From: Ptychomitrium polyphyllum | Taxonomy: Eukaryota | Length of the DNA stretch: 64,000 nt | Direction of reading: 5' to 3' | Assembly: GCA_973851085.1 (NCBI GenBank) | Contig: OZ316776.1 | Span: 12,586,001-12,650,000, forward strand | In this document: positions 8,088-44,914 of the stretch, piece by piece | How positions within the stretch are numbered: position 1 is the stretch's first letter | Layout of the letters: every line of letters begins with the position of its first letter | Program-made: the position numbers and the translations under genes | The notes under the pieces: generated by a model | Told to the model about the DNA's origin: nothing | Database searches by the model: none | The model's input: the letters and a program-made list of their open reading frames with translations, nothing else

Positions 8088-8894
8088 ATGGTAATGGGTG
8101 GGGTGTTTGCGAGCCGCGAGGGGCCGGCCTGGTTGCCGGCGTTGCTAGAATGTGATAGTTTCTTCTCGCATTGTAATTTCCATACTTCGGGAAAGAACGA
8201 GCGAAACCAGTTTTGCTTTGATTGTCCGAAGGCGGGGACGCTGTGTCCGGAGGGGCTGGTGACGTTGCACAGGGGGCACTCGAGTATTCAAATTAGGCGG
8301 GCATCGCACAGGGACGTGGTGCGCGTGGCTGACATTCAGAAGTACGTTGATCTCAGCAACATTCAGCCGTACACGATCAATAGCGCGAAGATTGTGTTTC
8401 TGGTGTCGAAGCCGCAGCCGAAGATCGTGAAAGGCGCGGCGCATTACTGCGAGATGTGTCGCCGCAGCATTGCGGACCCCGTTCGCTTTTGCTCTATCCT
8501 TTGTAAGTTGGCAGGAATTCAGGCGTATCCTCACGATTTCACGCTCACTCTCACGGTGTTCGCCAAGTCCGGGCCAGGATTCTTCAGCAAGGGCAGCACC
8601 GACTCTGTGAATGCAGCCTCCCCTGCCACGAGCGCCCACAGCCACGGCTCGGGAATCACAAACGTCATGCCCGACACGCCCAAGAAGGGCTCGAAACGCA
8701 CCGTCAAGGATGCCGCGTCGCCGTCTTCCAAGAAGTCAAAGTTGGCATTTTCGGCAGTGCCGCTCGTTCACCCTCGCGACGAGGAGACGTCCTCGATGAT
8801 GAGCCCCATGGCTCCCCTCACACCGGCGAACGAGTCTGGCTCCAAGGTTCACCGCAGAAAGCAAGAGCACCCGCTACGGGCGCCTATGCTTTAA
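8088..8894 (+). CDS. PLATZ: PLATZ-family zinc-dependent transcription factor, single exon, 268 aa
   Basis: N-terminal PAWLPALL..FF..C..H..N.FCFDC..LC..H.GH, then IQIRRASHRDVVRV.DIQKYVDLSNIQPYTINSAKIVFL, CEMCRRSIADPVRFCSILCKL, and C-terminal HRRK..P.RAP. All match PLATZ consensus features. Confidence 0.93.
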   Translation: MVMGGVFASREGPAWLPALLECDSFFSHCNFHTSGKNERNQFCFDCPKAGTLCPEGLVTLHRGHSSIQIRRASHRDVVRVADIQKYVDLSNIQPYTINSAKIVFLVSKPQPKIVKGAAHYCEMCRRSIADPVRFCSILCKLAGIQAYPHDFTLTLTVFAKSGPGFFSKGSTDSVNAASPATSAHSHGSGITNVMPDTPKKGSKRTVKDAASPSSKKSKLAFSAVPLVHPRDEETSSMMSPMAPLTPANESGSKVHRRKQEHPLRAPML

Positions 8895-14998: not shown

Positions 14999-17304
14999 AT
15001 GGCGAAGAAGCGTACCAAGAGCCGACTGGATTTCTACCGCATCACCAACACTCCGAAAATCATTAAACGTAGGTTTGTTCATTATCTCTGAAGTGAGTGG
15101 AAAATCAATTTGCATCACTGCACCGAACCTGTAGTAGTTGCACAATAATGATTAAATGGTAGATGATTAAAACACGAGGGCAGTTTTTAAGTAGCAGGGA
15201 ACTTCAACTCTAGGTTTTCTGAATTTATCCTACAAAGTAATAGAGTAGGGACTAGCTATTAGGTCAGTGCGGAACTTAGTGACCGATGCATACGAGACGG
15301 GTTTTTGTGATTGACCATGAGAAGATCATTACTGCACAATTGTCTTGGTTTAGGTTTTTCTTAAACTCAGACCTGGTTTGGGTGACCACTCGTTTGGATA
15401 ACTTATAACATCCACAACATACGAAAGTTATCCTGGCACTCTCTTGAACTGGGGATGAGCACTCGCAGTTTTGGGGAATTTTAAGAATGGGCTTTAAGGG
15501 AAGAATTGTAGGGGGCCAAATCCTTTCGAGCACCAAATTTGGGTTACCAAAATGGTTCTGTCCTAAGTTTGAGTTTGAGAAGGAAGAGCTTCTTGCTCGA
15601 AAGGAAAGGAGGGTACCTGGATAATGTTCATGGCCGCTTTAGCTCAGTTTCTGTTTGTACTCGCACAAAGAATGAAACAGAAGATTTAGGGCTAAGCTAG
15701 GGTTCAACGAGGTGAACTGTTAGGATAGTTTCATTAAAAGGACGCTACGACCGATTGTAAGGCTCTAGCCCTTAGCTAACCTGTGAAAGGAAAACAAGGC
15801 GGCAGTTTGTGTTGGTCGCTGTGCTCCTGTCACTGACATCAGCAACTTGCCTAATTGTTTACTTTCACAGGGCTGCTGCTCACGGAACTCTGTTCACAAG
15901 GAAAAGCACGACCTGAGGTAACCCAAAAGTCAGAAGTTTTTACTCATGGCCCCATATTGATAGATCCTTGAAAATAGATAGATTTGAAATAATACAAACA
16001 TGCGTCCTTGATTTCTCTACTTACAGTGCTGGCACTGTCATTTTCTGGTTTTAATGCAGCTGGTGATACGGTGACTCTGCGGCCACCAGATCCCTCCACT
16101 CCTCCGTATGTGGCCAGAATTGAACACATCGAGCTGGACATGGCGGAGAAGATCACACTCAAAGTGCGCTGGTACTACCGACCCGAGGAATCTGCGGGTG
16201 GGCGTCGGCAGTTTCATGGCTCGAAAGAGCTCTTTCTTTCCGACCACTACGATGTTTGCAGTCCTGAGGCAGTGGAAAATAAGTGCACTATCCATACCTT
16301 CAAAGATTACACACGCCTGGAGGATGTAGGCGCTGATGATTATTTCTGTCGGTTCGACTACAATGCAAGTACTGGAACATTCTCGCCAGATCGTGTTGCT
16401 GTGTGAGTGCATCTTTCTCCTGTGATTGCATTTTTTGGTTATGCAAGAGCACGGCAACTAACTCAGCCGGCATGACACTGTAACTTCATGAGAAGTACAT
16501 GACCGCGGGGAAATATTAACCTGTTGATTCTGTCAATTGAGTCCTGACTGCTTGGAAATGGACACGACACTCTTTGAACATTGTGACTTTGGACCTTGCA
16601 AGTCTTTATCTGACATGGCAGCAAGGGAATACTATTGCAATATGCAAAAAGTTAGTGCGAGATTAGCTAAGATCAAATCTGTTAATGTATCTTGCAGGTA
16701 TTGCAAGTGTGAGATGCCCTACAATCCTGATGATTTGATGGTCCAATGCGAGAACTGCAAAGATTGGTAAGATTTCTCATGTTCAAGATGTTAACCATTG
16801 AGTGATTTTGTTTTCTGCCGCTCTATTTCTAGCATAACTAGCCAGCGGCACTAGCAATGACTGATAAAAGAAGACGTTGATGGAACTGCAATTGCACTGA
16901 ATCCAGTGGTTATTTTAGTCTAGAATGAATGAGTACTTCTAAGCTAAGCCAATTTTCAAAGACTAAGAGGTCTCTCTCATCTCCTTCCAAGTTGCATCCA
17001 TTGAGATGGGAAGACCCCTCCATCTACCCGCAATCGCCATTTACTACCCAGGATAGGGTTTGCCATCAAATCCGGATTTTGCTGATATTGTGTTTGTTTA
17101 CTTTGAAATGAGACTAAACTTGGCTAGTGTAACAAACCCTCATGTTGAAGGAAAACAAACGCAAGCTTCACTTGATCTGCTTGGAGACTAAATTGGTACA
17201 GTTATTGCTCCGGCAACAGGTTCCATCCGCATTGTGTGAAGCTGTCTTCCGAGGACATTAAAAACGTCAAGAATTTCAACTGCCCTGACTGCATTGATAA
17301 TTGA
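14999..17304 (+). CDS. EBS: BAH-PHD histone reader (EBS/SHL-like), 188 aa; exons 14999-15068, 16060-16402, 16698-16766, 17220-17304
   Basis: GT-AG exons join in frame. BAH motifs [36 protein letters not shown] and DDYFCRFDY are present, as is [31 protein letters not shown]...CPDC. A 5'UTR intron 14850-14997 ends just before the ATG. Confidence 0.95.
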
Positions 17305-19722: not shown

Positions 19723-20733
19723 TCAGTCGCCATTTGCTCGCTGTCGAAGAACCCTGTTGTCCTCAGGTAAATCGCACATAAAGTTTCCATTCCCATTACT
19801 CCTGCCTAAATGATATCTAGCCAGATTCTTGTTATCACCGAAACTGGAATCCCAGACCCTAACATCCTCATATCTAACTTCATGGCTGGGTGAAGCCAAC
19901 GTAAGAATCTCCTGGGTCCGCTTTAACCAGTCTGAGTTCAATCTGCGTGCAAAATCCTCAACCTCTCTGTCCACAATCTCCTTCAAAACAGGGTCTAAGC
20001 CGTCATCGTCAAAATCTCCCTCTTCAAACACCTTGTCCTGGTCTCTTAGCAACCTGTTATGATGCTCAAGAATTGTGTTGCTTGCCCCTCTCGCTCGTGG
20101 AATACTTCTGCCAAGCTCTTGTACTGCTTTTCCAGTATCCAGTTCGACGTCAACAGCTTCATTGGTGGAGTCAGTCTGGAGCCGAGATGCCACTGCCCCA
20201 CTTGAATCATCACTCTGGCCCTTCTTCCGCCGGTTCTTCTTCTTCTTGGGTCTGCCTACTTTGTTGTTCTTATTTTCACCATCAATAAAGGAAACCAATT
20301 CTTCTACAGAGCGCTCATCCTTAACTTGCTTCTCATTAGGGGAGTCTATAGCGTTGCTTTTGAGAAGCTTCTTTTCCTGAAGCTCCTTCCGCTTTCGAGC
20401 ATAGAGCCGATTCAACAACCTAATTCGAGGGTCATCGGTCATCATTTTGACAGGTTCGAGTTTCTCTTCCTCCGTTAAGTCGTCTGGTAGGTGAAATATT
20501 TCTCGTATTTGCTCAGGGGTTTTGCCTTCAATCATGCGTGCCAGGGCCCGACTTGTTAAGTCACCCAGCGGCTTCATGTCAAGACTATTTGCTGCTGATG
20601 CTAATTCACACAGCCTTCGTGTGTCTAGCCGCACAAACTTCTCATCAAAGAGTTTGCGCTCCTTATCAGACCGCCCAGGAACCCTGTGGAACCGACAATA
20701 CTCCAATACTAGTTTGAGTGCTCCTGGACTAAC
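19723..20733 (-). CDS. SKP1-like (ASK20/ASK21-type) coding sequence; intronless, lacks the N-terminus; terminal exon of the chimeric gene
   Basis: YCRFH.VPGRSDKERK.FDEKFVR.DT.RLCEL, DLTSRALARMIEGKTPEQIREIFHLPDDLTEEEKLEP, DDPRIRLLNRLYARKRKEL and DREVEDFARRLNSDW match the ASK21 type. The segment is preceded by acceptor ggtgcag|GTT. Confidence 0.9.
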   Translation of the reverse strand, partial: VSPGALKLVLEYCRFHRVPGRSDKERKLFDEKFVRLDTRRLCELASAANSLDMKPLGDLTSRALARMIEGKTPEQIREIFHLPDDLTEEEKLEPVKMMTDDPRIRLLNRLYARKRKELQEKKLLKSNAIDSPNEKQVKDERSVEELVSFIDGENKNNKVGRPKKKKNRRKKGQSDDSSGAVASRLQTDSTNEAVDVELDTGKAVQELGRSIPRARGASNTILEHHNRLLRDQDKVFEEGDFDDDGLDPVLKEIVDREVEDFARRLNSDWLKRTQEILTLASPSHEVRYEDVRVWDSSFGDNKNLARYHLGRSNGNGNFMCDLPEDNRVLRQRANGD

Positions 20734-21059
20734 CTGCACCATAGCACAACCCAAGCAACCTGAATTGAAACCACTGCAATCAATTCCTAATTCATCCCCA
20801 AAGAGAGAACTGATCGGTTTGTTTCAAAACTATGCCTGTGCTAGGTTGCTATTTGCAGGAACGATGCAAAAGAGACATACTATTCATCCACAAAAGACGC
20901 CCTCAACGACCACACATTGCTTTAACATAAGTGAATTTTGCCAGAAACCTAATAATTCGTGATAAACTATGAAGACCCTACCAAAAAATCATTAAGAAAT
21001 GGGCCCTATCTTCATCCTGACATACAAAGATTAGACCAAGAGTGATGTCAAGCACTCAC

Positions 21060-23012
21060 AGATTTGAACTTCTTCAGTTCACGTCTGGCAACTTTGCCTC
21101 GCCAAGCACACTGAAACGTGATAGCACCCTTACGCAGTTGTTTATATTGAGACCTGGTCTTCAATCCACGCCACCAAGCCTACAGAAGAAAACAGAAACA
21201 AACCCATCTTAGCCTCTTCGGATCAAAAAGCAGTTAAGTAGAGCGGTTGTAAGTTATCTGCTGATACTAGCAGCAATAAATCACCAACAAAGAACTCCAT
21301 AAATCAGGATGTGATATAACAAGGACTACAAACCTCCTCAAGACATAAACAGCAGCAACTTCATCATAGCATTTAGATCCGAGATGTAGTCGAATACATT
21401 GACTGCAATGTTTGGCAACATTACCTCAACAAAGGCACTGCATTATTTCAAGCAAAATGAAACAAAAAATTATAGACCTCAACTTCCTCAAGCCCGGTTG
21501 CTCATAAAGAAACCAAACACACAGCCCAATACCTGAATAATGGTGGCAGCTCTTGTCCGCTCGCTCAATTCATATTCATTGTGACCTATGTTTGTCTCCA
21601 TATACGTTTTGCAAGTAAGGGTCCCTACACATAAACACATCAGAAGTAGACAAACTGATAAGAACCTAACTACACACCACTTACAAGAAAATCCCAGATC
21701 TAAATTAAATAAATAGAAGGTATATCAACAAAGAATATAAGAACTGCATTTCTTCCTAAACCCATACCTCGCCAATATTTCTGAATTGTAACAGCAGCCA
21801 TTTCCATGGCTAGCAAGTCTTGCCTTTGGATCTTTATTGCTACGTTGCCCAACATCTCAGCTTTCTTTCTATCAAGTTCAGTCATTTCCCCAGATCGTAA
21901 AAAAACCTTCAAGTTTAACTCTCCAAATGGCGCCCCTTCATATTGTTCCATTTTGTGGTTGTTATGAAAAATGCGGTAATTCAACAACAAGATTAATCGC
22001 AATCAAAATACTTCTTGAATCTGTCTGGCATCCACAATCCATAAGCAACGTTAGATACCATAAACGCATACATTTATGCGGCCAAGAAAAACGCCTAATT
22101 TTTATCTTGGTTGACTCCTGTCAATCTGAGTCACTTGACAGCACACTTACCCAGCTCCCATCTACTTGCAAGAATGTACAGTAATGCTGGCTCATGGAGA
22201 TAAGCTAACTTCATCATATCATCCACGCATCCAGGTTGTGCATTTGTATCCTTGGCATAAATAGTGAATCTGTTTGACGACACCTGCATCAGAAGCAACA
22301 ACATGCACACACCTTTGTATCAAAAACAAACATAATCAAAACAACTTTCTGTTTTATAATGCTTGTTAAGAATCGTTTTCCTTATACTAAGAAAATCAAC
22401 AGATAGACTTACTATTACTGTTGAAGGCAATTCTTGGCTTCTATTAAATGAGTAAATGATCCTTGCTTCGGATATAGTACTACATATCACAATAGTGACG
22501 TGATGCCAGATGTTAAAATACAAATTCAGGTAATACTGAAGGGAAAAAGCTGGCTATTTGTGATGTCATGACAGCAAAAGTTGGCATATCCTCAGAGTGA
22601 CAGGTCTCATTCGATGACTTATAATTAGACTAGTCCTCTCAATATTCTTAAAACCTCCAAGAGGATCGAATGATGCAACTCAATAGCATCAGTAAAATCC
22701 CAGTAAAGCTAAGGTTCGAACAGCTAACTAAGTTGAAAGATGACAAGCTCAACGATGAATTTATTATTTCACGGTCCTGAACAGTACAAAAAATACACGT
22801 ACCAACATATTGATTTAAAATCATGCAGATAAGTCCATTTCCGAAGACCAAGGATGCTAGAACTAATGACTGCAAATATTTACCTCATATCCCTTAAAAC
22901 TGCGGATCTTAAATTTCTTGCCATCAATCTCTGTGATCTCTGCTTCTACCCAGGCCAAATCTGCGTCCTCCACCCAGACTTGGACACCGTTAACCACATT
23001 ACCAGCTATCGC
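21060..23012 (-). CDS. Internally deleted myosin XI duplicate forming the 5' part of a myosin XI::SKP1-like chimera; exons 23012-22884, 22283-22151, 22020-21768, 21624-21533, 21179-21060; one 1-nt frameshift at 21967-21971
   Basis: Exon-by-exon homology to exons 2, 3, 4/20, 21 and 22 of the + strand myosin XI (e.g. [64 protein letters not shown]). GT-AG sites are retained. The start codon upstream of the first exon is unresolved. Confidence 0.8.
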
Positions 23013-25449
23013 CTGCTAGAAACCGGCAAAAATATCAACTCTCAAATCATCATTATGCTAGCATTATCAATCAAGCAATGGAACGCACAAGACTAATCAA
23101 TAGAAGAACACGCTAATATAAAAAGTTTAGAGTACAAAAACATATGGTCTACTTACCCTAATTTTAAAACTCAACAACACTGAAGCACCAGGTCGTTGGA
23201 GTCTGGAATTGAGGTGGAATAACGATCACTATTACTGCAAAGCTCCTCAGTGTCCTGCATTAATTGATGTACGATATTGTCGTGGTCAGGAATCCTTAGC
23301 CCCTCGTTGTCACTGGCATGTTCACAGTATCTGATTAAATCAGCACACCAATGGCCCCATTCAACAGTAATTAGAAACCAATTGAATGAAAAGATACATG
23401 ATCCCACACACTACAGACTATTAATACAGGGGTTTCACCAGCAGAAGGCATGGCAAACCAAGATATCTTCCAAATGCTGCCTTTATACTCAAGTGTTGCC
23501 ACAAAAATAGTCGCACTGAAATGCTCCAAAAACTCCCGACTTCGAAGCAATGCAAAACAAGCAACTTTCAAACAATTGGAAGCAAAAGTCCATTCTCAGG
23601 ATCAAGCTTCCCACACCAAAATCATGTTCTTAATGTCCAAATCCGAAACACTATCGCCAAATGCCTCGCTAATACCCACTGAGCTCATTTCCTTAACCTC
23701 TCCTCAAAACCACCAGCTCCTCCAAGCAGAAACGACCGAACAGGGCGAAAACGAAATCAGCTTCCACCACTACCATCACAAACAAATTGCAGCTCCCCAA
23801 CCTCCAGTCCAATTCCAAAACAAAACCAACACCACCACTACACCGCCCAGGACGAACCACTCATAATCACGACAACAGAGACCACCACCACTGCACAAAC
23901 TCAACCAAACCAAAACTCTCAACAGCTCCCGCAACGAAAACCAAAATCACCACCTACCGGCGTGACAACCAAGAATTGGCCGCCACCACAAACGACCGCA
24001 TTGCAATTCCCAAACCCGCCCCCAAAACCGCGACCAAACCCCGTCATCCCTCCCGCCCTCAAACTTCCAAGCAAAATCGAAAAGCCAAAACCACATAACG
24101 CTGTGAAGACAAAACTTCCTACCTCATTATCAGGCTCCAGCACGGTGGCCCTCGTACGGGCCGTGGTGGCGCACTACTGCAGTGCAGCGACGGATCTCGC
24201 GCACGGCCGGAGCGCGGTGTGCGGACTACAGCAGAGTGCCGAGCCGGCCGCGGGAGCGCGAGTGAAGTGCGGACGCGAGGCGAAGCAAGAGGGCGCGCGC
24301 CATGGATCCTCGAAACCCTAGAAAGCTTGAAATGATTCCGCAACGCTGCGAGACAACCAACATCCACACCACTGCCTTCCCTGCGCAGCCCCGACCGCTC
24401 CCCGCGCTCGCTGCGACGCTATCTGCGCAACTTCTAGATTTCAGAACGCCTGGTGTTCGCCTCCCATAGATGATGTAAGGTTCCGGTTGGGAGAAGGGCA
24501 GGGCGGGCGCGACGGGCGGGCGGGCAGTGCGGGGCCGGAGCGTGGGTTGGGAGGAAGGAAGTACGAAACCCGCGCTCCACTCAGTGGCATCGACAGTATC
24601 TACGGATTTTCTAGACTTTGGAGGCATTTGGTAGATGATGTTGGTTTTACGTACGGGGACATCCGCGACGGGCAGGAGGGCAGAGAGGAGAGTAAATCGT
24701 GACTAGGCGGAGGAACCGTCACTTGTCGCAGAAACGTGGAAACTGTCCACGTGGTTTCTAGATTTACGTTGTCAAATCTATACCAGTGGTAGATTCTGGC
24801 GGTATTTCGTGCAACGGCGATTGTAAGTGCTTTCAAGCCCCGTTCCGTTTCAGCGGTGGAGCGCTGTTGCAGTGCATTGCCTCAGAATCACAGGATGTCT
24901 GCTTATTGCAAAGTGTTAAGCCCTGGCCTTTAAGGCCACGGTCGGCCGAGTTGAATGCAGAATCCGCCCTCACTTAATCGGCAACCCAGACCTATTCTGC
25001 GCCTCCCAGCCGTTCCCATGGTGTTCCCATATCATTCCCTGTCCTTAACGCCAGGGATCCAGCTAGGGAGCACCGCTTGTGCCTCCCGCTCGACCTGTGA
25101 GTTCGCGCTCGCAGGCCCGCGCAAAAGCTGTGCAGGGGCTTCAATCGGCCCTCCGCGGTCCGTTCCCTAGAACATGAATTCCCTGGGGAAACAGAGCGGA
25201 ATCGCTCTCGGACACTCCTATGCTGCGTTGAATTGTGCATTGCATCATGTGAGTTGTGCATGGCTGTGCTTCACAGCCAGTTCGTGAGCCTTGAGAACGC
25301 AGGGAACTGCTTTGAGAATTCTGGGAGCGGCTTGGGCTCAGCCCCAAGTTACACGTTCGAGGAATGTAATTTACTCGAGCTGCCACCTCGGGTGTAATCC
25401 GTTGCATTTGCACCCTTGTTTATAGGGTAGGCTACATTGCATTTTAACA

Positions 25450-31014: not shown

Positions 31015-34000
31015 ATGGTGAGTGATGGAGGACTGGAGTGGATTTCCGGGGCCGGGCGTGCTTAGGGTTGAATGCTGCGGAGGGCGCGGATCGGGCGCCC
31101 TCTGTTGGACGGAGTCGTTTCGTTTAGGTTGCCGCTGTATTTGGCTGCGTTGTGTGTTGATGCGGACGGGCAGTGGCCGGGTGTTTGGTCGCGTGTGATC
31201 TCTCTCGGTGGCGCTGCCGCGGGGGGCGTTGCGTCGCTCGAGGGGGTGGAATTTGGGGCGTACGAGGTGCTCTAATGCCAGCGTCATGACCTAATGGACG
31301 GGCGCGACTGTGTGCGGTTTGGATTGGAGTTTGTTTGCGGTGGCAGGGATTGGAGATGCGGTCGCTAGTGTGGCAAGTAGCGTAGGTGAATCGCAATGTG
31401 GCTCCGTGCTTTGGAGATTCCTGGTTCTTACGCGAGATGGTTTACTTTTTGGTGCACATTTTTGAAGGAATGAGCTTGGCCGAGTCGATGCAGCTCTTCG
31501 TTGCGTATTCGGTTTGTTTGTGTGATATCGCCTTCAGATTTGAATGGGCGGTGGACTTTAGGATAGAGCGCACGGCCTGATTACGCCGTGCTGCACACAG
31601 CTCTCCCCCTGTTATCTGGCTCTTGGTACCTCGGTGAATTGGTGACAGCTATTCTGTGAACCGAGAGACACAAGCTCGTTGAGCTTTCGCGACGATTGGC
31701 GAGGTCTGTGATTTTCGGATATGGAGCTGGGCATTGGTAACGTGCGGTGAGAATTTTCTTGATCGCCATGCTCAAACCAAAATCAGCTTCTCTGGGAGCT
31801 CGCAATGCAAATGGACTGGATTTTCGAACGCCATCGTTGTAGATCCCTTTGATCAGTAGGAGCTGAGGAGTTATTACGTTGAGGAGCCAGTGGTTCTGTT
31901 ATGCTGATCCCGCACAGTTAGTTGGACACCGGGGCGTTTGTGTGAAGGGTTTTTTTCCTTGAGCCTCTCTGTGCCCTGTTCTAGCCTTGGCTCCTATCAC
32001 GTGTAATAATAGCGGTCGAGTCTCAGATCGGAGACGTGAGGCACGTGAACGCTCCTTGGTTGTCGATATTTTACGTTGTCATATCCCAATACTTCCCCCC
32101 CGTATTTTCCGCTCAGACCGGTGGGGTTCCAGGCCGTGATTACTTATCTGGGCGTAGGACTATCTGCTTGGAGCTCTGTCCATGTATGGCATTTGATGGA
32201 CTCCGCCATCCTCTTCGTTTTATGGTCATAACCTTTGCTACCAATGGGCACGCTCTCGTGTGGGAGTGTTTCTGAACGCGGACCTCTTATGCTGGTTTTG
32301 TGCAGGCGGCAACAGGTAATGTGGCGATTGGGGCCCAGGTCTGGGTGGAGGACCCGGATTTGGCCTGGGCGGAAGGAGAGGCCCTCGAGATCAATGACAA
32401 GAAAGTCACGGTCCGCACCAGCAAGGGAAACGAGGTAAATGCAGTACCGCTTGAAACTGGTGATCATCCAGCTTAGTGGGTGTCAAGATACTCTTTGTTC
32501 GTCTTTTCTTCAGCATGCATGGACATAGGGCTCGACCAAGGCCTCAGCAGGTTTGGATACTTGAGAAGTAGCCGGAGCAATCGTGCGTTGGTTGATGCTT
32601 AGGCAAGTGACAGAGCGCATACTTGCGAAATCCCTCGATCGTTGTGTCCCGTTCGTCAGTGCCTTTGGCGCGTCATAGGCCATATCGATGTCTTTCCTGT
32701 GAGACGACACTCCACATCAGCATCCACGCAGTAGAGTGTTCATAAGTGATGTACATGATGTTCTTACAGGTCTATAAATTTGTGTCACTGTCTCCGATGC
32801 AGGTCACAACGAGCATATCAAGTATTCATGCCAAGGACCCAGATGCACAGCCTGGTGGTGTGGACGACATGACGAAGTTGGCATATCTGCATGAGCCAGG
32901 AGTGTTGTACAACCTTGCAAGTAGATATGAACTGGATGAGATCTACGTGAGTTTTTCAAACGACCCTGACTTGCATCCTGGTTACTCGTTTCTCTTGTGG
33001 CCGTATACTGGAAGAGCTGGCAGACTCGGTGTTGAACAATATTTGCTGGTGGTGGATGGCAGACATACACCGGGAATATCTTGATTGCGATCAATCCCTT
33101 CGTGAAGCTGCCGCACTTGTACAATAGCCATATGATGGAGCAATATAGGGGGGCACCACTTGGAGAGCTCAGCCCTCATGTCTTTGCAGTGGCGGATGCT
33201 TCATACAGGTATATCTACCTTACCTCCAAAACAGAGAAGCGTACAGTGATGCGTGTTTATTGGCACGGGTTTGGTGCACGATAAGCACACGATGTGCGCA
33301 TGCTCACTCTTGGCTGATGATTTTCCCTCGTTTACATACAGTACGGCCACTTCTGTGAGTGCTGGTCACCAGTTATTCGGTCCAGGTGACGAGTTGAAGT
33401 TGCATGCAGATTGAAAGAGCTGTAATGCGCTGTAAAGCGACGAATTGTTGATGAATGGTAGTCTTGTTGTGTAGGACCGTGAAGCTTGCACCTAACTCCG
33501 AGAGCCTGTGTTGTACTGCAGAGCAATGATCAATGAGAAGAGGAGTCAATCTATACTGGTGAGTGGAGAGAGTGGAGCTGGAAAGACAGAGACAACCAAG
33601 TTGATCATGCAGTATTTGGCTTACATGGGTGGCCGAGCCAACACCGATGGGCGAACTGTTGAGCAACAAGTTCTTGAGGTGCGTTCTCTTTCACCTCCTT
33701 CGATGTGCTTCACGAATCTGCAATGCTGAGATGTCGACTTCGAGAATCTCCCCTGATTTGTGATCCTCATTTGTCGAGCATCCTTCGGGGTTTTCATCGT
33801 TTCACCGTGTCTGACATCCAGTACGTCACGGTGATCAGTTGGGATTTGCACCTCTGGCTTTCTTCGTTTCGAACAAGACTACTACTTGCGTCGGTCGAAG
33901 CAATCCAGTCTGAATTGAGAATTATAATGAGTGCAGTCCAGAAGTACAATGAGGACCATGAGTTCATGAATGGGTTGCCGCTTCATGTAAGCGAGCACGA

Positions 34001-37000
34001 TGGTTGCAATCGGGATGTCCATAAACATTTGACGCTCATAATGGAAAGTCACGCATGGCATGTTTGCAGATGTAAGTTAAACTGGGAGATTTAAGTAATG
34101 AAAGCAAATCCGTCACTGGTCACGTCTAGGGAAGATCCTTTTGTTTGTGCTTGAAATGAGCTTGAGAAGGTGCAACCCTTATCTCAGCAGATTCAAGAAA
34201 GGATAGATGAAAGCAAATCCACGAAAGAGAAAAGGCGTAAAAATCTATCAAACTTCTGGAAGAGAGGTGAAAAGATAAGGTCCCTGCAGAAAGGTCCGAA
34301 GGAAAAGGCATTTGTTATCGAGAAAGTACATCAGTTGTACACAGTTGAGGGCCTACCTGCTCCTTTGCATAATGTTGAACGAACATAAGAATAACTATGG
34401 TAACTCCGACACAAGAATCTAGTGTGTAGCACTGTGGTAAGAACACATGAGGCTTAGGCGCAATGGAGGCAGAGGAGGGCGATACTCCTGTACTCACATG
34501 ATGCTCTCTGGTTTGTTCGATGTGCAGTCCAATCCGCTTCTGGAAGCTTTCGGAAATGCCAAGACAGTTCGCAACGACAACTCGAGGTACGTTGAGTTTT
34601 CTGTGTGCACTTGGCAGGCACAGTCCTGCAGCCTCGTACGATTGTCGTGTGCTGGTACCCGGGGATTAGCTGGATATCCGAAGCAGACAGCTACTAATTC
34701 TGCTGTTGTGTGGGCATCAGCCGATTCGGTAAGTTCGTGGAGATCCAGTTCGATAGGAGTGGCCGAATATCTGGCGCTGCTGTGCGTACGTACTTGCTGG
34801 AGAGATCTCGAGTTGTGCAAATTGCAGACCCTGAAAGAAATTACCACTGCTTTTACCAGCTGTGTGCGTCACCAGAGGTACAAGTCATACCCACGTGAAG
34901 ATTGGACATCCTGTTCGGTGTGGTATGTGCGGTGGATCGTTACGTAGTCCGTGCTTGTTCTCAGGCAAGCAGGGACGCGAGCGACGTGATCCAAGCACAC
35001 GAGACCCACGTGCAGTAGGGGGATGGGAGTGACCATGGAAGAGTCGTTAAGTTCGACAGTGCATTGGAGGCACTGTGTCTTTCTTCAATGTTGGACTAGG
35101 TTTTGCTGACCGAATAGTTGTTTTTTCAGGATTGCGAAAGATACAAGCTGGGGGATCCGAAAAGTTTTCATTACTTGAATCAAAGTGACTGTTTTGAGTT
35201 GAGCGGTGTGAGCAACGGTCGGGAATATGTGAAGACTCGCAGGGCTATGGATGTCGTGGGTATCAACCCAGACGAGCAGGTCTGATGATTTTCTGGCAGA
35301 CCTTAGGTGGCATTTTAGATTCTTTGTTGTGGGCAACTGTAACCAAGTGGCCCTAAACATTTGCCAGTGTTCCATAGTCGATCGCAAGTCATGTGCCACA
35401 GTCAGTATGTCTCTCCATCCTGTAAATCTTGCTGTTCTCATTTCACTTCCATCGAGTTCTCGTGCTGATTCGATGTGTTCCGACGTCTTGTGCTCCAGGA
35501 AGCCATTTTTCGGGTAGTAGCATCAGTGCTACATTTGGGAAATATCGACTTTGTCGCAGGGCCAGATTCCGACTCATCGGAGCTCAAAGATGAGAAGTCC
35601 AAGTTCCATCTGGAGGCTGCTGCAGAGCTGCTCCAGTGAGTCCCACGTCACACACACGTTTCTCCCTCCCTCGCAAGCCATGATTTATACCACTTTGTTA
35701 GGAAGATGTCTTGGCGCTAGAACTCCGGATTCCTGTGTAACATTTTTCTGTTGTCGATGGCTTACGCAGGTCTAAATCATGTTAGTATGGTACCTTACTG
35801 GCTGTCTGTTCTCTTTCTGGTAGATGTGAACCGAAGGGGCTGTTGGATTCACTGTGTACCCGAGTCCTCGTTACACGGGATGGGAATATCACAATGACTT
35901 TGAATGTGGATCAAGCCACCGTTAACCGCGACACCTTGGCGAAGACGATCTACTCTCGCCTGTTTGACTGGTAAAGCTCGTGCCGATCTTTTGGTGAATG
36001 GCTGGGGATGATCTTTGAAGGCTGTGGATTTGTGACCGTGTATTTCGTTCTGTTTCCTGCAGAAGTTGAACTTGATGACTCTATGTAGCGTTGTGGTTCG
36101 CTTGTTTCAGGCTCGTAGACAAAGTAAACAGATCCATCGGCCAAGATCCGGATTCACCATTTCTTGTCGGTGTGTTAGATATTTATGGCTTTGAAAGCTT
36201 CAAGTTCAACAGGTAAGGCCCGACTTTCGTCTTAGGGATTAATCGTCTTCCAACGTTCGCGTCTTCTGGACATAGTTTCTGGTATAGGCGCATTTCAACG
36301 CAGTTAACAGCTCTTGGGTGAAAATCCTGGCTGTTTTGAGGGCGTTGTTTTTATTTTAGCGGTCCACCTCAGGCCCCTGCAGCTTAAGTGCCGTTTGTCA
36401 TGCTGCAGTTTTGAACAATTCTGTATAAATTTGGCCAATGAGAAGCTTCAGCAGCATTTTAACCAGGTCAGCTTTTCCCAAATTTCTGTGAACCTCTATG
36501 GTTGGAGGTGTGAATTTCTGCTGTTTAGTGTGTTCCACGAGGAATTCAGGTGTTGCCATCTTGTTCCTTGCGAGTCTGATCAACAGACGAATCTGATCAA
36601 CATCCGCGAGTGTACAGAAGGGATACTAATATAGCGTTTGCGTTGAAAGCACAGCATGTTTTCAAGATGGAGCAGGACGAGTACACCAAGGAGGCCATCA
36701 ACTGGAGCTACATTGAGTTCGTTGACAACCAAGATGTTTTGGATCTCATAGAGAAGGTTTCCTTCTTGTCCTTTGCACTCTAGCTTTTAGGATGTGCTTA
36801 TGCAAGTTGGCAGTTGCAGATGCAGTGAGCGAGTACCTTCTTGACGAAGAGACCCGTTGTTATGCAAATGCAGTGTCTGTCTTTAGCTTGTGAACTTCCG
36901 GTTGGAATCTGAAGGCAGACGTGGATCTGACGTTTTGCCAACGGCTCTTTGTTGTGCAGAAACCTTCTGGCATCATTGCTCTCCTTGACGAAGCTTGGTA

Positions 37001-40000
37001 TGCGTCACAGCATGTTCGACATCACTGTTTTTGCTGAATCACTTTTTGAATATGGAAGCCAAGCACTGCAATGAGGAATGGGTGAGGTCTTCAGGGATCT
37101 GAGGGGTTGTGCTTTTGATCTTGCAGCATGTTTCCTAAGTCTACAAATGAGACGTTTGCGACGAAGCTGTTCCAGCAGTACAGGAACCATAAGCGTTTAA
37201 GCAAGCCAAAGCTTGCTCGCACTGACTTCACGATAAATCATTATGCTGGGGATGTGAGCACCGGACTCTCTTGTCCCTGATTTGCTGATATGGCTGATTG
37301 GTCAATGTCTCCTCAAGGTCGAGTTTGTTTTTCTGCTTCTACCAGTTCCTTCATTGGGATGCAGAGGCGTTTCGGTAGAGCATTCGCTGTCAGTACGTTT
37401 CCGGGCACTGACAACATACTCTTACGACTTGGCAGGTTACGTATCAGACCGAATTGTTTCTGGATAAGAACAAAGATTATGTCGTTGCTGAGCATCAGTC
37501 GTTGTTGGGATCTTCTGCCTGCCCTTTTGTCGCGAGCCTCTTCCCGAAGTCTGCTGATGAAGGCTCGAAGTCTTCATACAAGTTCTCTTCTATCGGTACT
37601 CGTTTCAAGGTTGGCAAAGATAGTCTTCCTGGATGGCTAGCATTTTCTGATCTCACGATTGGGCAGATCCTTAAAGCTGTGGTTTATCGGTGTAATGATG
37701 TATGTAAATGCTCACATACTGTGAGCATGCAGTTGATGTTTGGAATCATGCGTCTCTTCTTGACGGATCACCCCCATGTAGATACCTGGGTCTGCAAGTT
37801 AGGTTCCGTTATACTGACTGCCGAGCGAATGTGCAGCAACAACTGGGAGCGTTGATGGACACCCTGAGCACAACGGAGCCACACTACATTCGTTGTGTGA
37901 AGCCCAATATGCTGAACAAGCCTGGTCGCTTTGAGAACCAGAACGTCATCCAGCAGCTTCGATGTGGAGTGAGTTTGATTTCCTTTTGGCGGGTTCCTTT
38001 GTTTGGCTTTGGCTTCGTTCTGTGCAGATTTCGATTTTCACAGGCGGCGCAGGTCCGTTGATGCAGTCATGATGGATGTGGCTCGACCTTGTGTAGGGAG
38101 TCTTGGAGGCAATCAGGATCAGCTGTGCAGGGTACCCTACCCGGCGCACATTTTACGAGTTTCTCGACCGCTTTGGGATGCTGGCACCGGAGGTTCTGGA
38201 GGGCAAGTAAGTACTTGGATTCTTGAAAGTGTTACGTAGTTGCCAGTTGATGAGCTTTGGATACCAAGCTGACGATACGGTTTTACTTGGCTCTAGGCGA
38301 GGATAGTGTGAGGCCAGCGTTTTGAAGACATGGAGGCCTAATTTGTTCTGATGCGTTGGCGTCTTGTTGTGCTAGTTATGACGAGAAGATGGCAGCAGAG
38401 ACACTTCTGACAAAAATGAACCTGAAGAATTATCAGGTGCATAGCTTCGTCCGTCACCTCTGCTGCTTGTACAATACATGGATGGGAGTTTGATATCGTT
38501 GCTATCATTCTGCAAGGAGTCAAACGCAAGGTGCTCTGGGTAGACTCTGATTTACGATCTATGGCTGTTGGATTGGGTGGATTCAGTTGGGTCAAACAAA
38601 GGTGTTTTTGCGGTCTGGCCAAATGGCTGAACTTGATGCCAAGAGAGCTGAGATGTTGAACAACGCAGCAAGGACGATCCAGAGACAAGTCCGAACCTTC
38701 CTGGCAAGAAGGCATTTGATTGCCATGCGGAGGGCGGTAGTTACGATACAGAAATACTGGCGAGGTATGGGTTGCAGTCACGATGCAGATACACTGGCGA
38801 GGTTCCGAGACGGAGATAGATACTTCGAACTCGGTGAATCTCTGGGATATGGTACTTCCAGGTCTTTGATGCGTGAGTCGTTCCTCAGCTGTTGTGTGTC
38901 TGCCGTGTGTCTGTGCAGGGAGTCTTGCTCGAAAGCGGTATGCACGGCTGCGTCAAGAAGCTGCAGCAATATATATCCAGAAGAATGTTCGGATGTGGCT
39001 CGCTCGGAAGAAGTTCATGGAGATGAAAGACGCTGCTGTGAAGATACAAGCTGGATTCCGAGGAATGGCAGCTCGCAAGGAGTACCGATTAAGAAGACAG
39101 ACCAAGGCTGCCACCCTCATTCAGGTACGGGAGCTGTCTGCTTCAAGAGCAGTCTACAAGATCTTGTTGCATTGTTTTTATTAGGAACGGTGCAGTGACT
39201 GATGATGGCCGCATTCAACTGGTCCTTTAGCGTAGTAGCTGGTTCTGTACAGACTGGACTTGTGGTGTCATGGTTGATCTGGTGCTGCCTTGCACAGGCG
39301 CGGTGGCGTGGATACAAGGCACGATCACAATACAAGAAGTGCCGAAAGAGTGCTATCACGATTCAGTGCGCTTGGCGGGGAAGGGTGGCCAGAAATGAAC
39401 TCAAGAAGCTCAAACATGTAAAGAGCCAGCATCACTGTCATTGACATTGCTTGCAAGAGAACATTATGTTGGTGTACGCTAGTTGCTTTTTTGGCCTGTA
39501 GAGACAGTGGTTTTCAGTTCCCTAGTAGTGCGGTTTTTGTGATTTTGTTGCATATCATGCAACCATCAGGTCCAGCAGAAAGTAGCTGCTTCTCACATCT
39601 CGACGAATGATGTACGTCCCGTTGCTTTTCTCGGTGACGTCCGTGTCGAATGATGCTTTTGGGACGTTTTTCCCGAACTTGTTTTGTGGTTTGTGTAGGC
39701 TGCAAAGGAAACTGGGGCATTGCAAGAAGCGAAAACGAAGCTGGAGAAGAGATGCGAGGAGCTCACGTGGCGTCTGCAACTCGAGAAACGCATGCGGGTA
39801 TGTCTGTGCACATTGTTGGTGGAGGCTCTTTGGTTGGGAGCTCAACTGTGTGTGCGCATTGACAAATCGAGTTCTATGTGTGGACCCTTGGGATTCCTTA
39901 GCTCCTTGTTTGTCTGGTTTTTCTGAGAATTGTGAAGCGGAACACGAAAGTGGTGGGAGGGCAGAAAGTACGTAGCGATGTCAGTGGGCATCCATGCTAA

Positions 40001-43000
40001 CGGAAGTTGCAATATACTGTACTGCGATTGCTGTGCAGACGGACATGGAGGAAGCTAAAAATCAAGAGATCGCGAAGTTGCAAGGAGCATTACAAGAACA
40101 GTTGATGCAAGCGCAGAAAGCCAACTCACAGCTTGCAAAGGAGCTTGAAGATAATAGAGTGGCCCTTGGCCAAGCCGCTCAGGTTATAAAGGAAGTGCCT
40201 CCTGTGGAAGTGTTTGACGCTAAAGTGAAAAAGCTCACGGAAGATAACGAAAAGCTGCAGGTATGCTGCGCAAACCAATTCATCAGTGTTCTTCTTTGGC
40301 TCCGTTGCTCTGTTGTGTGATGATAGTGAATGTTGGATAAGTTCATCTGGGTTACGATCACAAATAGGAGCAATACTCTGGCCTGCGACATTTACCCAAT
40401 GGCGTTCTGCTTTGTGGTTTGTGCAGGCCCTCCTGAAGTCCTTAGAGAAGAGAGCATCAGAAGCCGAAGAGGACTTTGCGAGAGCTAAACATGAAAGTGA
40501 GGAGAGCCTTAAAAGAGCTGAGCAAGCAGAAACCAAGATCACTGAAACACAAGAAGCTCTCCAAAGGTCTGTTTTGCAATCCAGTGCCTGGCTGAGTTTG
40601 GGTGCTCATCTGGGCCGTTTCTGGGCTATCGGGATGTGACTTCTGTTCATTTGTGCAGAGTGTCGATCTTAGTCCGGCTATTGCGCAACATTGTAGGAGT
40701 TGGCTATGAAGTTTTGGTGTGTAGAATAGACATCTGAGTGTTTGCTTCGGCACAGATTGGAAGAAAAGCTGGCCAACATGGAGTCCGAAAATCAAGTTCT
40801 TCGGCAACAGACCCTTGTATCATCACCAACCAAGGGCTTGTCGAACCGATTCAAGAGCACAGTGTTTCAGGTGAGATACCATGTGACATGGTGATCCTGT
40901 CTCATTCTCATGTGAAGTACGCGTATGTACTGGTTTTGGTGTCCTTCGCTAGGTTGAAATCGGCTTAGTTTCTTGAAGTTCTTAACCCTTTTCACGATCG
41001 GTGTATGCTCGGTATCTTTCATTTCTCAGCCCTTCCAGAACTGCATCTACAGCTAAGTCGTGTCTTACATCAGACCATCTCTTCCGCCAGGTTTTGTGTG
41101 TATGTTACTAACATGTGTGCTGTACCCCTTCCGTTACTTTTTTCAGAGGACTCCAGATAATGGCTACCTTGCCAACAATGACCACAGAGAAACTCCTCGT
41201 TCAGTACCGGTGAGGAGTTGATTTCTTCGCTGCTTGTCATGTTATGTGTTGTATAGGTTCCAGCCGGATTTTCTTACGTATCACAATTTATGCTCTTGGC
41301 TTTGCATAAAACTCCCTAGATATTCTGTGGAAGAGGTTGATTTTCGTTGTTGCATCGTAATCAGCGGGTGGAGTTTGTTGTTCAGTTGGAAGGACCAGGT
41401 TGGACTTTGGGTTACTTCATGTTCGAAGAGTAATCTCAAGTTTTTCTCTGTGTTTGCAGGAGTCGCCGAACACAGCCCAAATTGAGAGGGAGCATAGTGA
41501 GGCTGAGCAGAGGCGCCAGAAATTGCTTATTGATAGACAACAGGTAGGCTTTAGTCGGTTGGTCGATCGTTGCCGGATATTTGTTAGACAAGGCTTAGAG
41601 TCGAATGTGAAATCTCATGCCGGCCATCTACGGATGCTAGAGCAGAGTGTCGTTTCCAGTATCTTCGCGTACTGTGCAAACGAGAAGGATCAGACACCGG
41701 ATTGTATGATATCCTTTGTGGTTTTTAATCTGATACTAAGATTGAACCACTTTCCAGACCTGATTTTACTTGTGCAACTGTTCGTGCAGGAGAATCAAGA
41801 TTCGTTACTGCAGTGTGTCATGCAAGACGTTGGCTTCAACAACGATCGTCCAATTGCCGCTTGTATATTATACAAGTCCTTGCTCCAATGGCGTTCTTTC
41901 GAGGCAGAGAGGACTAATGTCTTCGATCGAATCATTCAAACGATTGGCACTGCTATCGAAGTAAGTGGAGTATCTAAAATGCTGCGTGAGTTGTAGTTCC
42001 TAGGATCTCAAGCAGTTCTCGATGAGAGCACTCCTCGACGCATGGTCAACCCTAGATTCATCATTTATTGCAAGTTTGTCGCATCGGCTGAAACCTGGTG
42101 CGGTTCCCTCCCAGTGTCGAACGGCGTGCCTTCATTGCCTCTGATGAACTGCAGGAAAAACATTCTGTGCTCCGAATCTGAGTCAGCTGACCCTTATTTG
42201 GAAACGACTTTATTTAGCAGGTTCTAACTAAAGAACCTGTTCATTTGCAGACTCAAGATAACAATGATGTGCTCGCGTACTGGCTGTCCAACACCTCTAC
42301 TCTGCTATTCCTTCTGCAACGGACTCTTAAAGCCAGCGGAGCTGCAGGGGGTGCTCCTCAAAGGCGACGCTCTAATTCTGTGACACTGTTTGGGAGAATG
42401 ACGCAAGTAAGTGACCGATCTGCTGAGGCTGAGCAACGTAATAATGACGTTTGCTGAATCTCTACACGATTGTACATTTCTAGGATCTGTTTAGTCGGGT
42501 TGACCAGATTTCAGTTAGAACTCTATGTTTCCACTATCATTCGTGTGTAGAATGAAGGTTCTGACCTTTCAGAAGGGCTATCAGGGGTTCCGAGCGTCTC
42601 CTACCCCGGGTGCCGTCTCATTCGCGAATGGAGGCATCATGGGTGGATTAGATATGTCGCGGCAGGTTGAGGCCAAGTATCCTGCCCTGCTATTCAAGCA
42701 GCAACTCACTGCGTACGTAGAGAAGATCTATGGCATGGTCCGGGACAACTTGAAGAAGGAGATTTCACCTCTGCTTGGGCTCTGTATCCAGGTCAGATGG
42801 TGTTTCATCCTGCTTATTCGTGTACCGAGCGTACAAGTTCAAACGATTCAGTGATGTTTGTATCCCATGAGGGATTGCTGTAGTCCTTAAATATGAAGGT
42901 GCAATTTTCAAGGTGTTCCTTCTGTCCGCCTCTTTGGTGTCATGCTGACGGAACCTTCCAAAACTTTCTGGCAGGCCCCGAGGACATCGAGGGCTAGTCT

Positions 43001-44914
43001 AGGCAAGGTGTCAAGGTCGCCGAGTTCGAGCGTAAGTGCACAGCAGACACTCAGCAGCCACTGGCACAGTATCATCTCCAGCCTCAGTTCATTGCTGAGC
43101 ACCATGCGCGCCAACCATGTGAGCCTCCGGATCTGCGTGTTTTTCTGTTCTGTTGAAGCCTTTACTTTTCCCGCAACTTCTCACACATGATTCAGACAAG
43201 CACAAGGTAGTGCTTATATTTATAGCCAGCTCTGAGTTGTGACGTGCTGAATGCAGGTCCCTCCGTTCCTTGTTCGCAAGCTCTTCACCCAAATCTTCTC
43301 GTTCATCAATGTACAGCTATTCAACAGGTCAGGCCTTTCTGTGAATGGTGACTAGATGCCGAAGACGATTCTTTTTCTTCAACTCTATTTCTTCGAAAAC
43401 TCATCATATACTCTGGATCAAGTCTGTGGCGTCCTTGAGTGAGTCCCTGACTTCTGGAGTGAAGTTTGCTGTGCCAATCTAAGCTTTTGTACGGGGATCG
43501 TGCATTGGGTTCATTGCAGTTTACTTCTGCGGCGGGAGTGTTGCTCATTCAGCAATGGAGAATATGTGAAAGCTGGACTCGCAGAACTTGAGCACTGGAT
43601 ATATGAAGCTGGGCAGGAGGTACCGTCCTTAATGTGTCGAGCAATACAGAGTTCATCCATCAGCACTTGCATAGGGTTTTGATTTCGATTCCGGTTTATT
43701 TATAGTCGATGTGTTTGATGGGTTCGTGGGCTGTCCACCTTCATTCGTCGATTCTACAGTTTGTCGAACTGATCCGTGTTGTCCGCAGTATGCTGGAGCA
43801 TCATGGGATGAGCTGAAGTACATTCGACAAGCAGTTGGGTTTTTGGTATGTGCTTTCTGTCGTCCACTTGGGCATTACCTAGAATGGAGTAATACATGTT
43901 GGTTGACAGTGCTCTGGGTTTTGATCCGTGAACGTTCTCCGAGCTAACCTCTCGTAGCATCAGAATCCCGTGTTTGTCATGAATGGGACTGTTGGAGTGT
44001 GGGCCAGTTTGTTAATCTCAATTCCAGAGCTTCCGAGTTACTTCGCTGATCGTACAAAACGTCTCGCTGCTTCTGATGTTCTGGGGCTGGTCGGACAGTA
44101 CTTCTCACTCAAAATGCTCTTTTGCAGGTCATTCATCAAAAACCGAAGAAGTCGCTTGATGAGATCACCCACGATCTCTGCCCGGTAAGTTGACGGAACG
44201 TGCTGAGAACATAATCGGCAGTGGGCCTCGCTTCGAACGTGTTTGGATTGATAATTCGTGATGTAGTCAAGATCGGGAGAAGCGCATGATTACTGACGAT
44301 CATTGCTTTCCGGCAGGTGTTGAGTGTCCAGCAGCTATATCGTATTAGTACCATGTACTGGGATGACAAGTATGGTACCCATAGCGTCTCGCCGGAGGTA
44401 AGCTTCCGTTGTGTGTCATAACTTCTCCAAGAATTACATCATCAGCCGTTGCTTTGTTCCGTGAGGAGTCACTTCATCCTTTGAGCACTGACTCATGTCT
44501 TCCACTTATAGGTGATTGCGAACATGAGAGTTCTAATGACGGAGGATTCTAACAGTGCTGTCAGCAACTCCTTCTTGCTAGACGACGACTCTAGGTATGA
44601 CCAAAACCTCAGGTGATCGACGGTTGATCCATGATGATATGTGCACGTTCTGTTTGTTAAGATCTCATCTTTGCTATCACATGTTTGACCTTGGCGAGCA
44701 ACGTGGACTGCTGTATTATGTACACTAGGAACAATGCTTTTCAACTCAGAATATGGCTACTAACAGTAAGTGTTTTGTGTGCTGCAGTATCCCATTCTCC
44801 GTAGATGACATATCAAAGTCAATGCCCGAGGTTGACATGGCTGAAGTTGAGCCGCCACCTTTGTTGAAGGACAACGCTGCCTTCCACTTTCTAATGCCAC
44901 AACCAGATACATAG
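31015..44914 (+). CDS. myoXI: Class XI myosin (SH3-like N-terminus, motor, 6 IQ motifs, coiled coil, DIL/globular tail), 39 coding exons
   Basis: ATG-only first exon (31015-31017|gtgagt) and exon 2 at 32306-32434. Motor motifs [18 protein letters not shown]-loop [37 protein letters not shown] and [19 protein letters not shown] are present. IQ exons lie at 38587-39417. Tail motifs [10 protein letters not shown] and [13 protein letters not shown] are present. Stop TAG ends at 44914. Confidence 0.97.

What the first reader, a model, noticed from the sequence alone, without database searches (positions are those of the whole stretch)
19723..23012. Chimeric gene: motor-less myosin XI (SH3-like + IQ motifs) spliced in frame to a SKP1-like domain
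Seen: the last myosin-derived exon (21179-21060, ...ARRELKKFKS|gtgagt, phase 0) can join the acceptor ggtgcag|GTT at 20733 in frame, entering a 336-codon ASK21-type SKP1-like sequence. From ATG 21951 (MEQYEGAPF) the spliced frame 21951-21768 + 21624-21533 + 21179-21060 + 20733-19723 is uninterrupted (1407 nt, 468 aa). Known: IQ motifs bind calmodulin/light chains, and SKP1 proteins bridge F-box proteins to CUL1 in SCF ligases. Inference: this may be an IQ-bearing SCF adaptor or F-box decoy that links Ca2+/calmodulin to ubiquitination. I know of no described protein with this architecture.
Basis: partly seen in the sequence, partly recalled or inferred. Interest (0 to 1): 0.92.

Follow-up and report, generated by a model that had tools for sequence, protein, structure and literature searches.

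The report
Ancient moss myosin–SKP1 fusion gene
A moss gene, shared with Ceratodon and Physcomitrium, fuses the IQ-motif neck of a duplicated myosin to a SKP1 ubiquitin-ligase adaptor that lacks its front part, so it likely binds calmodulin and F-box proteins but would probably not build a normal ligase.

Summary
Real, old and conserved. The four-exon 468-aa frame is as described. The same joined protein is annotated in Ceratodon purpureus and stands as one uninterrupted ORF on short Logan contigs, which likely are spliced RNA. Physcomitrium patens has the same junction behind a degenerate myosin head. Both halves place all chimeras in one clade: one origin. The parent myosin XI lies head-to-head in the window. 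The join uses native exon borders of both parents: the myosin neck replaced exon 1 (the front of the BTB/POZ fold) of the type II SKP1 gene. Corrections: the SH3-like exon is not in this frame; 587 motor residues were deleted inside one exon; this is a truncated SKP1, so a canonical SCF adaptor is less likely than a cullin-poor F-box binder. IQ spacing (35, 23) is the same in the four chimeras scanned, and 132 of 140 conserved SKP1/tail columns are kept. No RNA of this species and no binding were tested. Seven searches found no paper on the fusion; three key papers were not read.

The parts
24123..24330 (-). Candidate first exon (5' end unknown; donor after 24123). Its last codons resemble the start of one P. 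patens chimera isoform, with GTG where that has Met; likely 5' leader here
   Evidence: inference, no RNA
22884..23012 (-). Exon A: myosin N-terminal SH3-like exon, open, phase 0-0; not in the 468-aa frame; likely 5' leader or uORF
   Evidence: Pfam Myosin_N E 2.7e-07; 25 of 43 aa identical to the parent
22151..22283 (-). Exon B: start of the myosin head; a small deletion at its 3' end gives a phase-1 GTAAGT donor
   Evidence: 29 of 44 aa identical to the parent
21768..22024 (-). Exon C: fused from two myosin exons. 1-nt insertion near 21970 and TGA at 22005-22003 in the coding frame; ATG 21951 (an internal Met of the myosin head); deletion junction near 21915-21910 removing residues 129-715 of myosin XI (P0180 numbering); converter remnant; first IQ
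21533..21624 (-). Exon D: shortened neck exon, 30-aa spacer of fixed length and variable sequence, start of second IQ
   Evidence: (15-19 of 30 aa identical among motor-less chimeras)
21060..21179 (-). Exon E: last two IQ motifs of myosin XI, native exon borders; most conserved myosin-derived part
   Evidence: 38 of 40 aa identical to Ceratodon and P0001, 32 of 40 to P. patens
20734..21059 (-). Fusion intron, phase 0: myosin donor, SKP1 acceptor
   Evidence: its interior matches neither parent intron above shuffles
19723..20733 (-). Exon F: whole second exon of the moss type II SKP1 gene: SKP1 helices from H3 on, plus the type II tail (long helix, basic cluster, acidic-helix motif)
32306..44908 (+). 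Full-length myosin XI gene, head-to-head with the chimera; the lineage from which the chimera's 5' part was copied
   Evidence: tblastn and blastn; exon alignments; tree

Best explanation
This is a conserved moss fusion gene in which the neck exons of a duplicated myosin XI replaced the first exon of the type II (ASK21-like) SKP1 gene, and its protein likely binds calmodulin-family light chains through three IQ motifs and F-box proteins through the kept SKP1 helices while likely docking poorly or not at all on CUL1. Origin (shown by sequence and trees): one event before Physcomitrium and Ceratodon split; a 5' copy of myosin XI beside the parent was joined through a phase-0 intron to SKP1 exon 2; the motor then decayed separately, keeping a converter-less head in P. 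patens and losing 587 residues in the lineage of this window, where an internal Met is the predicted start. Function (inferred): a non-ligase F-box holder or scaffold, probably nuclear because the basic cluster is kept, whose fold or availability depends on calmodulin-type chains on a neck of fixed length. Odds: real spliced protein-coding gene about 0.93; IQs bind a light chain about 0.75; F-box binding kept about 0.7; CUL1 docking lost or much weakened about 0.7.
For: Junction identical in Ceratodon (2 accessions), in P0001/P0123 (5 and 4 Logan contigs, longest 2407 and 2362 nt) and in P. patens (P0161, P0172: 12 and 67 Logan contigs, longest 3851 and 3825 nt, for a 1110-aa ORF). Sphagnum gene = exon of 133 codons + 494-nt phase-0 intron + one large exon that begins at the same residue as exon F. 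Its model has strands 87-91 and 97-101 and helices 102-105 and 109-118 in that first exon and overlays SKP1 1fs1_B at Z 15.0, rmsd 1.8, 116 aligned; Skp1_POZ is hit (just under cut-off) in Sphagnum and Selaginella but not in the chimeras, and no remnant is in the window. Chimera model: helices 135-211 at pLDDT 80-89, best fold matches are SKP1 chains. Helices 5-8 are the F-box sites (figure legend, PMC13278062). 132 of 140 columns conserved in at least 90% of 77 other type II proteins are kept in the Ceratodon chimera. IQ starts are 35 and 23 residues apart in 4 of 4 chimeras although exon D is only 15-19 of 30 identical. Trees: 100/99 and 96/94, AU p 4.75e-07 against pairing the chimera with the window's own myosin. 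Arabidopsis ASK20/21 co-purify with an F-box protein and CUL1 (passage, PMC9035678).
Against: No RNA of this species was laid; the library type of the Logan contigs is not shown. The candidate leader exons hold 13 upstream ATGs, which would hinder translation from 21951. The first IQ has Cys at the second Arg position in this species. The motor-less clade has Asn at position 181 where 73 of 77 other type II proteins have Asp and type I SKP1 has Asn; I recall this as a CUL1 contact, so some CUL1 binding may remain. That the lost elements carry most of the CUL1 surface is recalled from Zheng et al. 2002, not read here. The IQ region of the model is low-confidence (pLDDT 29-60, pTM 0.36). IQ motifs of myosins often bind calmodulin without Ca2+ (recalled), so a Ca2+ switch is not implied.
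Confidence: 0.5

Rival explanations
1. Promoter and first-exon capture: the myosin part supplies expression, a start codon and at most a helical cap for the truncated fold; selection acts on the SKP1 half and its type II tail, which work without CUL1 and without regulation by calmodulin.
For: The myosin part decays step by step (different motor losses in two lineages); the SKP1 core is 119 of 126 identical to the POZ-bearing Sphagnum protein; the most conserved myosin exon is the one next to the junction.
Against: All three IQ cores and their spacing are kept in 4 of 4 chimeras; exon E is 38-40 of 40 identical in the motor-less clade, above the SKP1 tail's 190 of 208.
Confidence: 0.24
2. It is still a working SCF adaptor: the kept helices bind CUL1 well enough, and the IQ neck adds calmodulin control or, in P. 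patens, actin tethering.
For: H3-H8 conserved; Asp-to-Asn change towards type I SKP1; intact type II proteins co-purify with CUL1; no POZ-bearing type II SKP1 named from P. patens or Ceratodon is among the 120 listed of 871 hits, so this may be their only copy.
Against: About 48 residues of the domain (86-133 in the Sphagnum model: the sheet, two helices) are gone.
Confidence: 0.15
3. It is mainly a myosin-side regulator: a light-chain sink or actin tether co-regulated with the neighbouring myosin XI, with the SKP1 half as a new cargo-binding tail.
For: Next to myosin XI in three genomes (accession and locus numbers); P. patens keeps a head with an intact P-loop.
Against: The window lineage has no head; the P. 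patens head has changed switch I and II motifs and lacks 59 residues over the SH1 helix and converter (motif names recalled).
Confidence: 0.08
4. Pseudogene, chance adjacency or assembly artefact.
For: Frameshifted upstream exons and many upstream ATGs.
Against: Same junction in at least four lineages, open frames, strong conservation.
Confidence: 0.03

Closest known systems
Type II plant SKP1 (Arabidopsis ASK20/ASK21; Sphagnum CAK9858531)
   Same: Skp1 dimerisation domain, type II tail, exon 2 start, place in the tree. Definition of type II read in a passage of PMC5426791.
   Different: Skp1_POZ front part replaced by a myosin neck with three IQ motifs.
Myosin XI (window parent; P. patens XIa/XIb; Ceratodon KAG0560508)
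   Same: Exon borders and sequence of SH3, head start, converter end and IQ exons.
   Different: No motor, three IQ instead of the parent's longer neck, no coiled coil or DIL domain.
P. patens XP_024385123 / PHYPA_013180 (database name myosin-12); probably PhpMyo11C of Muhlhausen and Kollmar 2013
   Same: Orthologue: same junction, shared deletions and derived residues, beside myosin XI.
   Different: Keeps SH3 and a 589-aa degenerate head. The survey lists PhpMyo11C as a 645-aa 'fragment' (supplement row) and has no 'Skp' in its main text; that PhpMyo11C is this gene is my inference from motor length.
Headless myosins AtMyo11E2 and Poales Myo11E4
   Same: Partial duplicates of myosin XI without a motor; Myo11E4 has three IQ motifs; AtMyo11E2 lies in tandem with its parent (passages, PMC3850447).
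   Different: They keep the myosin tail; here the tail is replaced by an unrelated protein.

Membership tests
Type II SKP1 (ASK20/21-like) | Skp1 dimerisation domain PF01466 | tested here: met
   49.5 bits, cut-off 22.3
Type II SKP1 (ASK20/21-like) | Skp1_POZ N-terminal domain | tested here: not met
   No hit at E 1 in P0001, P0122 or exon F, while Sphagnum and Selaginella hit; native exon 1 absent
Type II SKP1 (ASK20/21-like) | Conserved C-terminal extension | tested here: met
   63 of 65 conserved tail columns kept
Type II SKP1 (ASK20/21-like) | Descent from the type II clade | tested here: met
   Nested among moss type II proteins, 100/99
SCF adaptor | Binds CUL1 | not testable with these tools
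SCF adaptor | Binds F-box motifs | not testable with these tools
   Helices kept; binding not tested
Myosin XI | Motor domain | tested here: not met
   Residues 129-715 deleted; no Myosin_head hit in P0001/P0122
Myosin XI | SH3-like domain in the same protein | tested here: not met
   Stop before ATG 21951 with all 5 donors tried; an exon-C-skipping form would be open but is not on record
Myosin XI | Coiled coil and DIL tail | tested here: not met
   No match to parent residues beyond 878 in the locus; no DIL hit
IQ-motif calmodulin-binding proteins | IQ motifs PF00612 | tested here: met
   3 stretches, 61-66 bits, cut-off 20.3 in the orthologues
IQ-motif calmodulin-binding proteins | Calmodulin or CML binding | not testable with these tools
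Chimeric gene by exon shuffling | Join at native, same-phase exon borders of two parents | tested here: met
   Myosin donor and SKP1 acceptor, both phase 0
Chimeric gene by exon shuffling | Spliced transcript across the join | tested here: inconclusive
   Uninterrupted joined ORFs on short Logan contigs of relatives, library type not shown; none laid for this species
Chimeric gene by exon shuffling | Conservation of both parts across species | tested here: met

The most novel reading that the evidence does not exclude
In the ancestor of Physcomitrium and Ceratodon the only type II SKP1 gene was turned into the tail of a myosin: a myosin-SKP1 that first carried or tethered F-box proteins on actin and then, as the motor decayed, became a calmodulin-gated, cullin-free F-box trap. 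It would be a built-in Ca2+ switch on F-box availability, and would show that the function of ASK20/21-type proteins across plants does not need their CUL1-facing half.
Probability: 0.2. Interest if true: 0.9.

Novelty: new variant of a known kind. Interest (0 to 1): 0.74.

Why it matters
It is an old, kept fusion of two unrelated core machines (actin motor neck, ubiquitin-ligase adaptor) with staged motor loss visible in living species. It likely identifies the 'fragment' third myosin XI of the model moss P. patens as a full chimeric protein, which can be knocked out and tagged there at once. It is also a natural deletion test of type II SKP1 proteins, whose role is poorly known: their C-terminal half stays highly conserved after the front of the BTB fold is lost.

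Tried and rejected
No whole genome is held, so copy number in this species is untested. Run search: no RNA holder listed; X1 and X2 are contigs of one sample, X2 leaves 20606-23400 uncovered, which proves nothing. The metagenome scan gave 30 loci and no chimeric locus, so no orthologue DNA and no orthologue dN/dS; the paralogue comparison (omega 0.10-0.36 on 12-44 codons, dS 0.5-1.7, one block saturated, the exon D row out of register and dropped) does not separate leader exons from coding exons. Idea that the 7-nt deletion and 1-nt insertion once compensated: rejected, the blocking TGA is already present out of frame in the parent (alignment). Recent origin from the window's own myosin: rejected. 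Retrocopy of SKP1: rejected, the large exon is native in Sphagnum. Prior adjacency in Sphagnum: no myosin in 11 loci with at most 8 kb flanks, inconclusive. Further chimeras: of 344 proteins held, 15 match both halves and all belong to the two known clusters; none is new among the 150 listed of 4184 representatives. Atlas search on the whole protein: no usable feature hit; the tail search did not complete. Weak VipE, DotA and RHH_ERCC6L2 Pfam hits are below cut-off and were ignored. No complex was predicted. No earlier scan findings. Searches for CUL1 contact residues gave no paper that lists them.

Full report
Observation. Pfam finds IQ motifs in exons C and E, Skp1 in exon F and Myosin_N in exon A. 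A single contig of run X1 covers the region without a difference, but may be the window's source.

The join exists outside this assembly. A search with exon F gave 871 hits, 120 listed; the best, P0001 (469 aa), is the only listed one with IQ plus Skp1. Its cluster has 7 members: three of 469 aa (P0001 and P0123 on Logan contigs of at most 2407 nt; P0122 = Ceratodon purpureus KAG0560504 and KAG0604567) and four of 340 aa that start at an ATG inside the intron. The short forms show what an unspliced call on DNA gives, so the uninterrupted 469-aa ORFs most likely come from spliced RNA (inference; library type not shown). The window protein is 419 and 421 of 468 identical to P0122 and P0001. A search for longer proteins gave 4 hits of 109 candidates, the best being P0161, 1110 aa with SH3, myosin head, IQ and Skp1. 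Six of the 15 listed members of its cluster are named P. patens proteins; P0161 and P0172 lie on 12 and 67 Logan contigs of at most 3851 nt. The junction residues are the same.

Anatomy and origin. A full myosin XI gene lies at 32306-44908 on the plus strand, head-to-head with the chimera. Accession and locus numbers put the chimera close to myosin XI in P. patens (PNR48703 and PNR48701) and Ceratodon (KC19_10G185100 and 185500) too. Exons A to E match parent exons with their splice sites. Exon C fuses two parent exons and drops residues 129-715; ATG 21951 is an internal Met of the head. In Sphagnum the type II SKP1 gene has a first exon of 133 codons, a 494-nt phase-0 intron and one large exon that starts at the same residue as exon F. 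So the fusion is exon replacement at native borders, not a retrocopy. The SKP1 tree (19 rows) groups the P. patens, Ceratodon, window and three unnamed sequences at 100/99, two of them known only as exon F. The myosin-block tree (10 rows, 213 columns; Ceratodon and P0001 fill only 108) groups the four chimeras at 96/94 and rejects a pairing with the window's own myosin, p-AU 4.75e-07; the P. patens row is a long branch. Shared derived residues and a shared 8-residue neck deletion agree. The event predates the Physcomitrium-Ceratodon split (some 200 million years or more, recalled) and is absent from Sphagnum, liverwort, Selaginella and seed-plant proteins seen here. The N-termini of three other moss-like sequences (P0007, P0011, P0012) are unknown.

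Motor decay. The P. patens head matches Pfam positions 1-614 of 679; against its neighbour myosin it has changed switch I and II motifs, a 4-residue gap in the relay region and a 59-residue gap over the SH1 helix and converter (element names recalled), so it is probably not motile. The window lineage keeps the converter end that P. patens lost, so the two losses are independent.

The SH3 exon. With each of 5 possible exon-B donors, the frame through exon C meets a stop before ATG 21951. Exons A and B are therefore leader or uORF in that transcript; they hold 11 of 13 upstream ATGs. Yet they are open, keep splice sites and are as close to the parent (dN 0.26, 0.19) as exon E (0.19), and skipping exon C gives an open 494-codon form. 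No such protein appeared. This is unresolved.

What the protein keeps and lacks. The Sphagnum model has its sheet and first two helices in exon 1 and overlays solved SKP1; these are missing in the chimera, whose model keeps helices 135-211 and matches SKP1 chains. Helices 5-8 are the F-box sites (legend of PMC13278062). That the lost part carries much of the CUL1 surface is recalled from Zheng et al. 2002; searches did not give a paper to cite. Of 140 columns conserved in at least 90% of 77 other type II proteins, the Ceratodon chimera keeps 132. Three IQ cores stand 35 and 23 residues apart in 4 of 4 chimeras. Against my reading: one IQ is weakened in this species, an Asp-to-Asn change restores a type I residue that I recall as a CUL1 contact, and the neck is modelled with low confidence.

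Mechanism. Most likely (0.5): a light-chain-bound neck fused to an F-box-binding half-SKP1 that does not form a normal ligase and so holds or positions F-box proteins. Rivals: promoter capture with a passive neck (0.24), working SCF adaptor (0.15), myosin-side regulator (0.08), artefact (0.03). No POZ-bearing type II SKP1 named from P. patens or Ceratodon is among the 120 listed hits, so the fusion may have taken their only copy; 751 hits were not shown, and a table in PMC3576659 lists one P. patens SKP1-like gene with more than one intron and one without introns, which I could not match (supplement).

Literature. Seven searches aimed at the fusion or at moss type II SKP1 and a third moss myosin XI showed no paper that describes it. 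Seen: passages of PMC3850447 plus supplement rows (two picture PDFs not searched; PhpMyo11C listed as a 645-aa fragment); passages of PMC3511428, PMC6650978, PMC3935558, PMC9035678, PMC3576659 (plus two supplement tables), PMC5426791, PMC13278062 and bioRxiv 10.1101/624361. Vidali et al. 2010 is not held; Kong et al. 2007, Elzanati et al. 2017 and Zheng et al. 2002 were seen only as references. Any of them, or their supplements, may mention the P. patens gene.

Verdict. A real, conserved chimeric gene with an architecture that sits unnamed in public annotations; a new variant of a known kind (exon-shuffled gene; neither a member of myosin XI nor a complete type II SKP1). Function is inferred, but directly testable in P. 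patens. Interest 0.74.

Noticed in passing
P0165 (P. patens XP_024385123): Degenerate myosin head: P-loop kept, switch I and II motifs changed, SH1 helix and converter missing; a candidate pseudo-motor in a model organism.
   Followed up: partly
window 23012-22151, minus: Exons A and B stay open with good splice sites though cut off from the main frame; either a 104-codon uORF from GTG 24143 or an exon-C-skipping isoform.
   Followed up: partly
window 24303-24226, minus: Short ATG-initiated ORF of 25 codons, rich in Arg, Leu, Ala and Ser like a transit peptide, in the candidate first exon.
   Followed up: no
window 15993-16770, plus: BAH-domain gene with a PHD-like exon (EBS/SHL type, name recalled), convergent with the chimera.
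   Followed up: no
window 8085-8891, 52509-52997, 59653-60141: PLATZ gene, a PALP-family enzyme (looks like tryptophan synthase beta, recalled) and a PAP fibrillin gene.
   Followed up: no
window 26000-30200: Very AT-rich stretch (17-24% GC) between the two head-to-head promoters.
   Followed up: no
L001-L011: Sphagnum has two type II SKP1 paralogues, both with a single intron, unlike the many-intron seed-plant genes.
   Followed up: partly
run X2, window 19827, 20343, 23400: Loose ends contain GATC, as ligation joints of a proximity library would; not a sign of misassembly (inference).
   Followed up: no
P0122 residues 270-286 and 371-400: Two highly conserved type II tail motifs without a Pfam family; the Atlas search for them did not complete.
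   Followed up: partly
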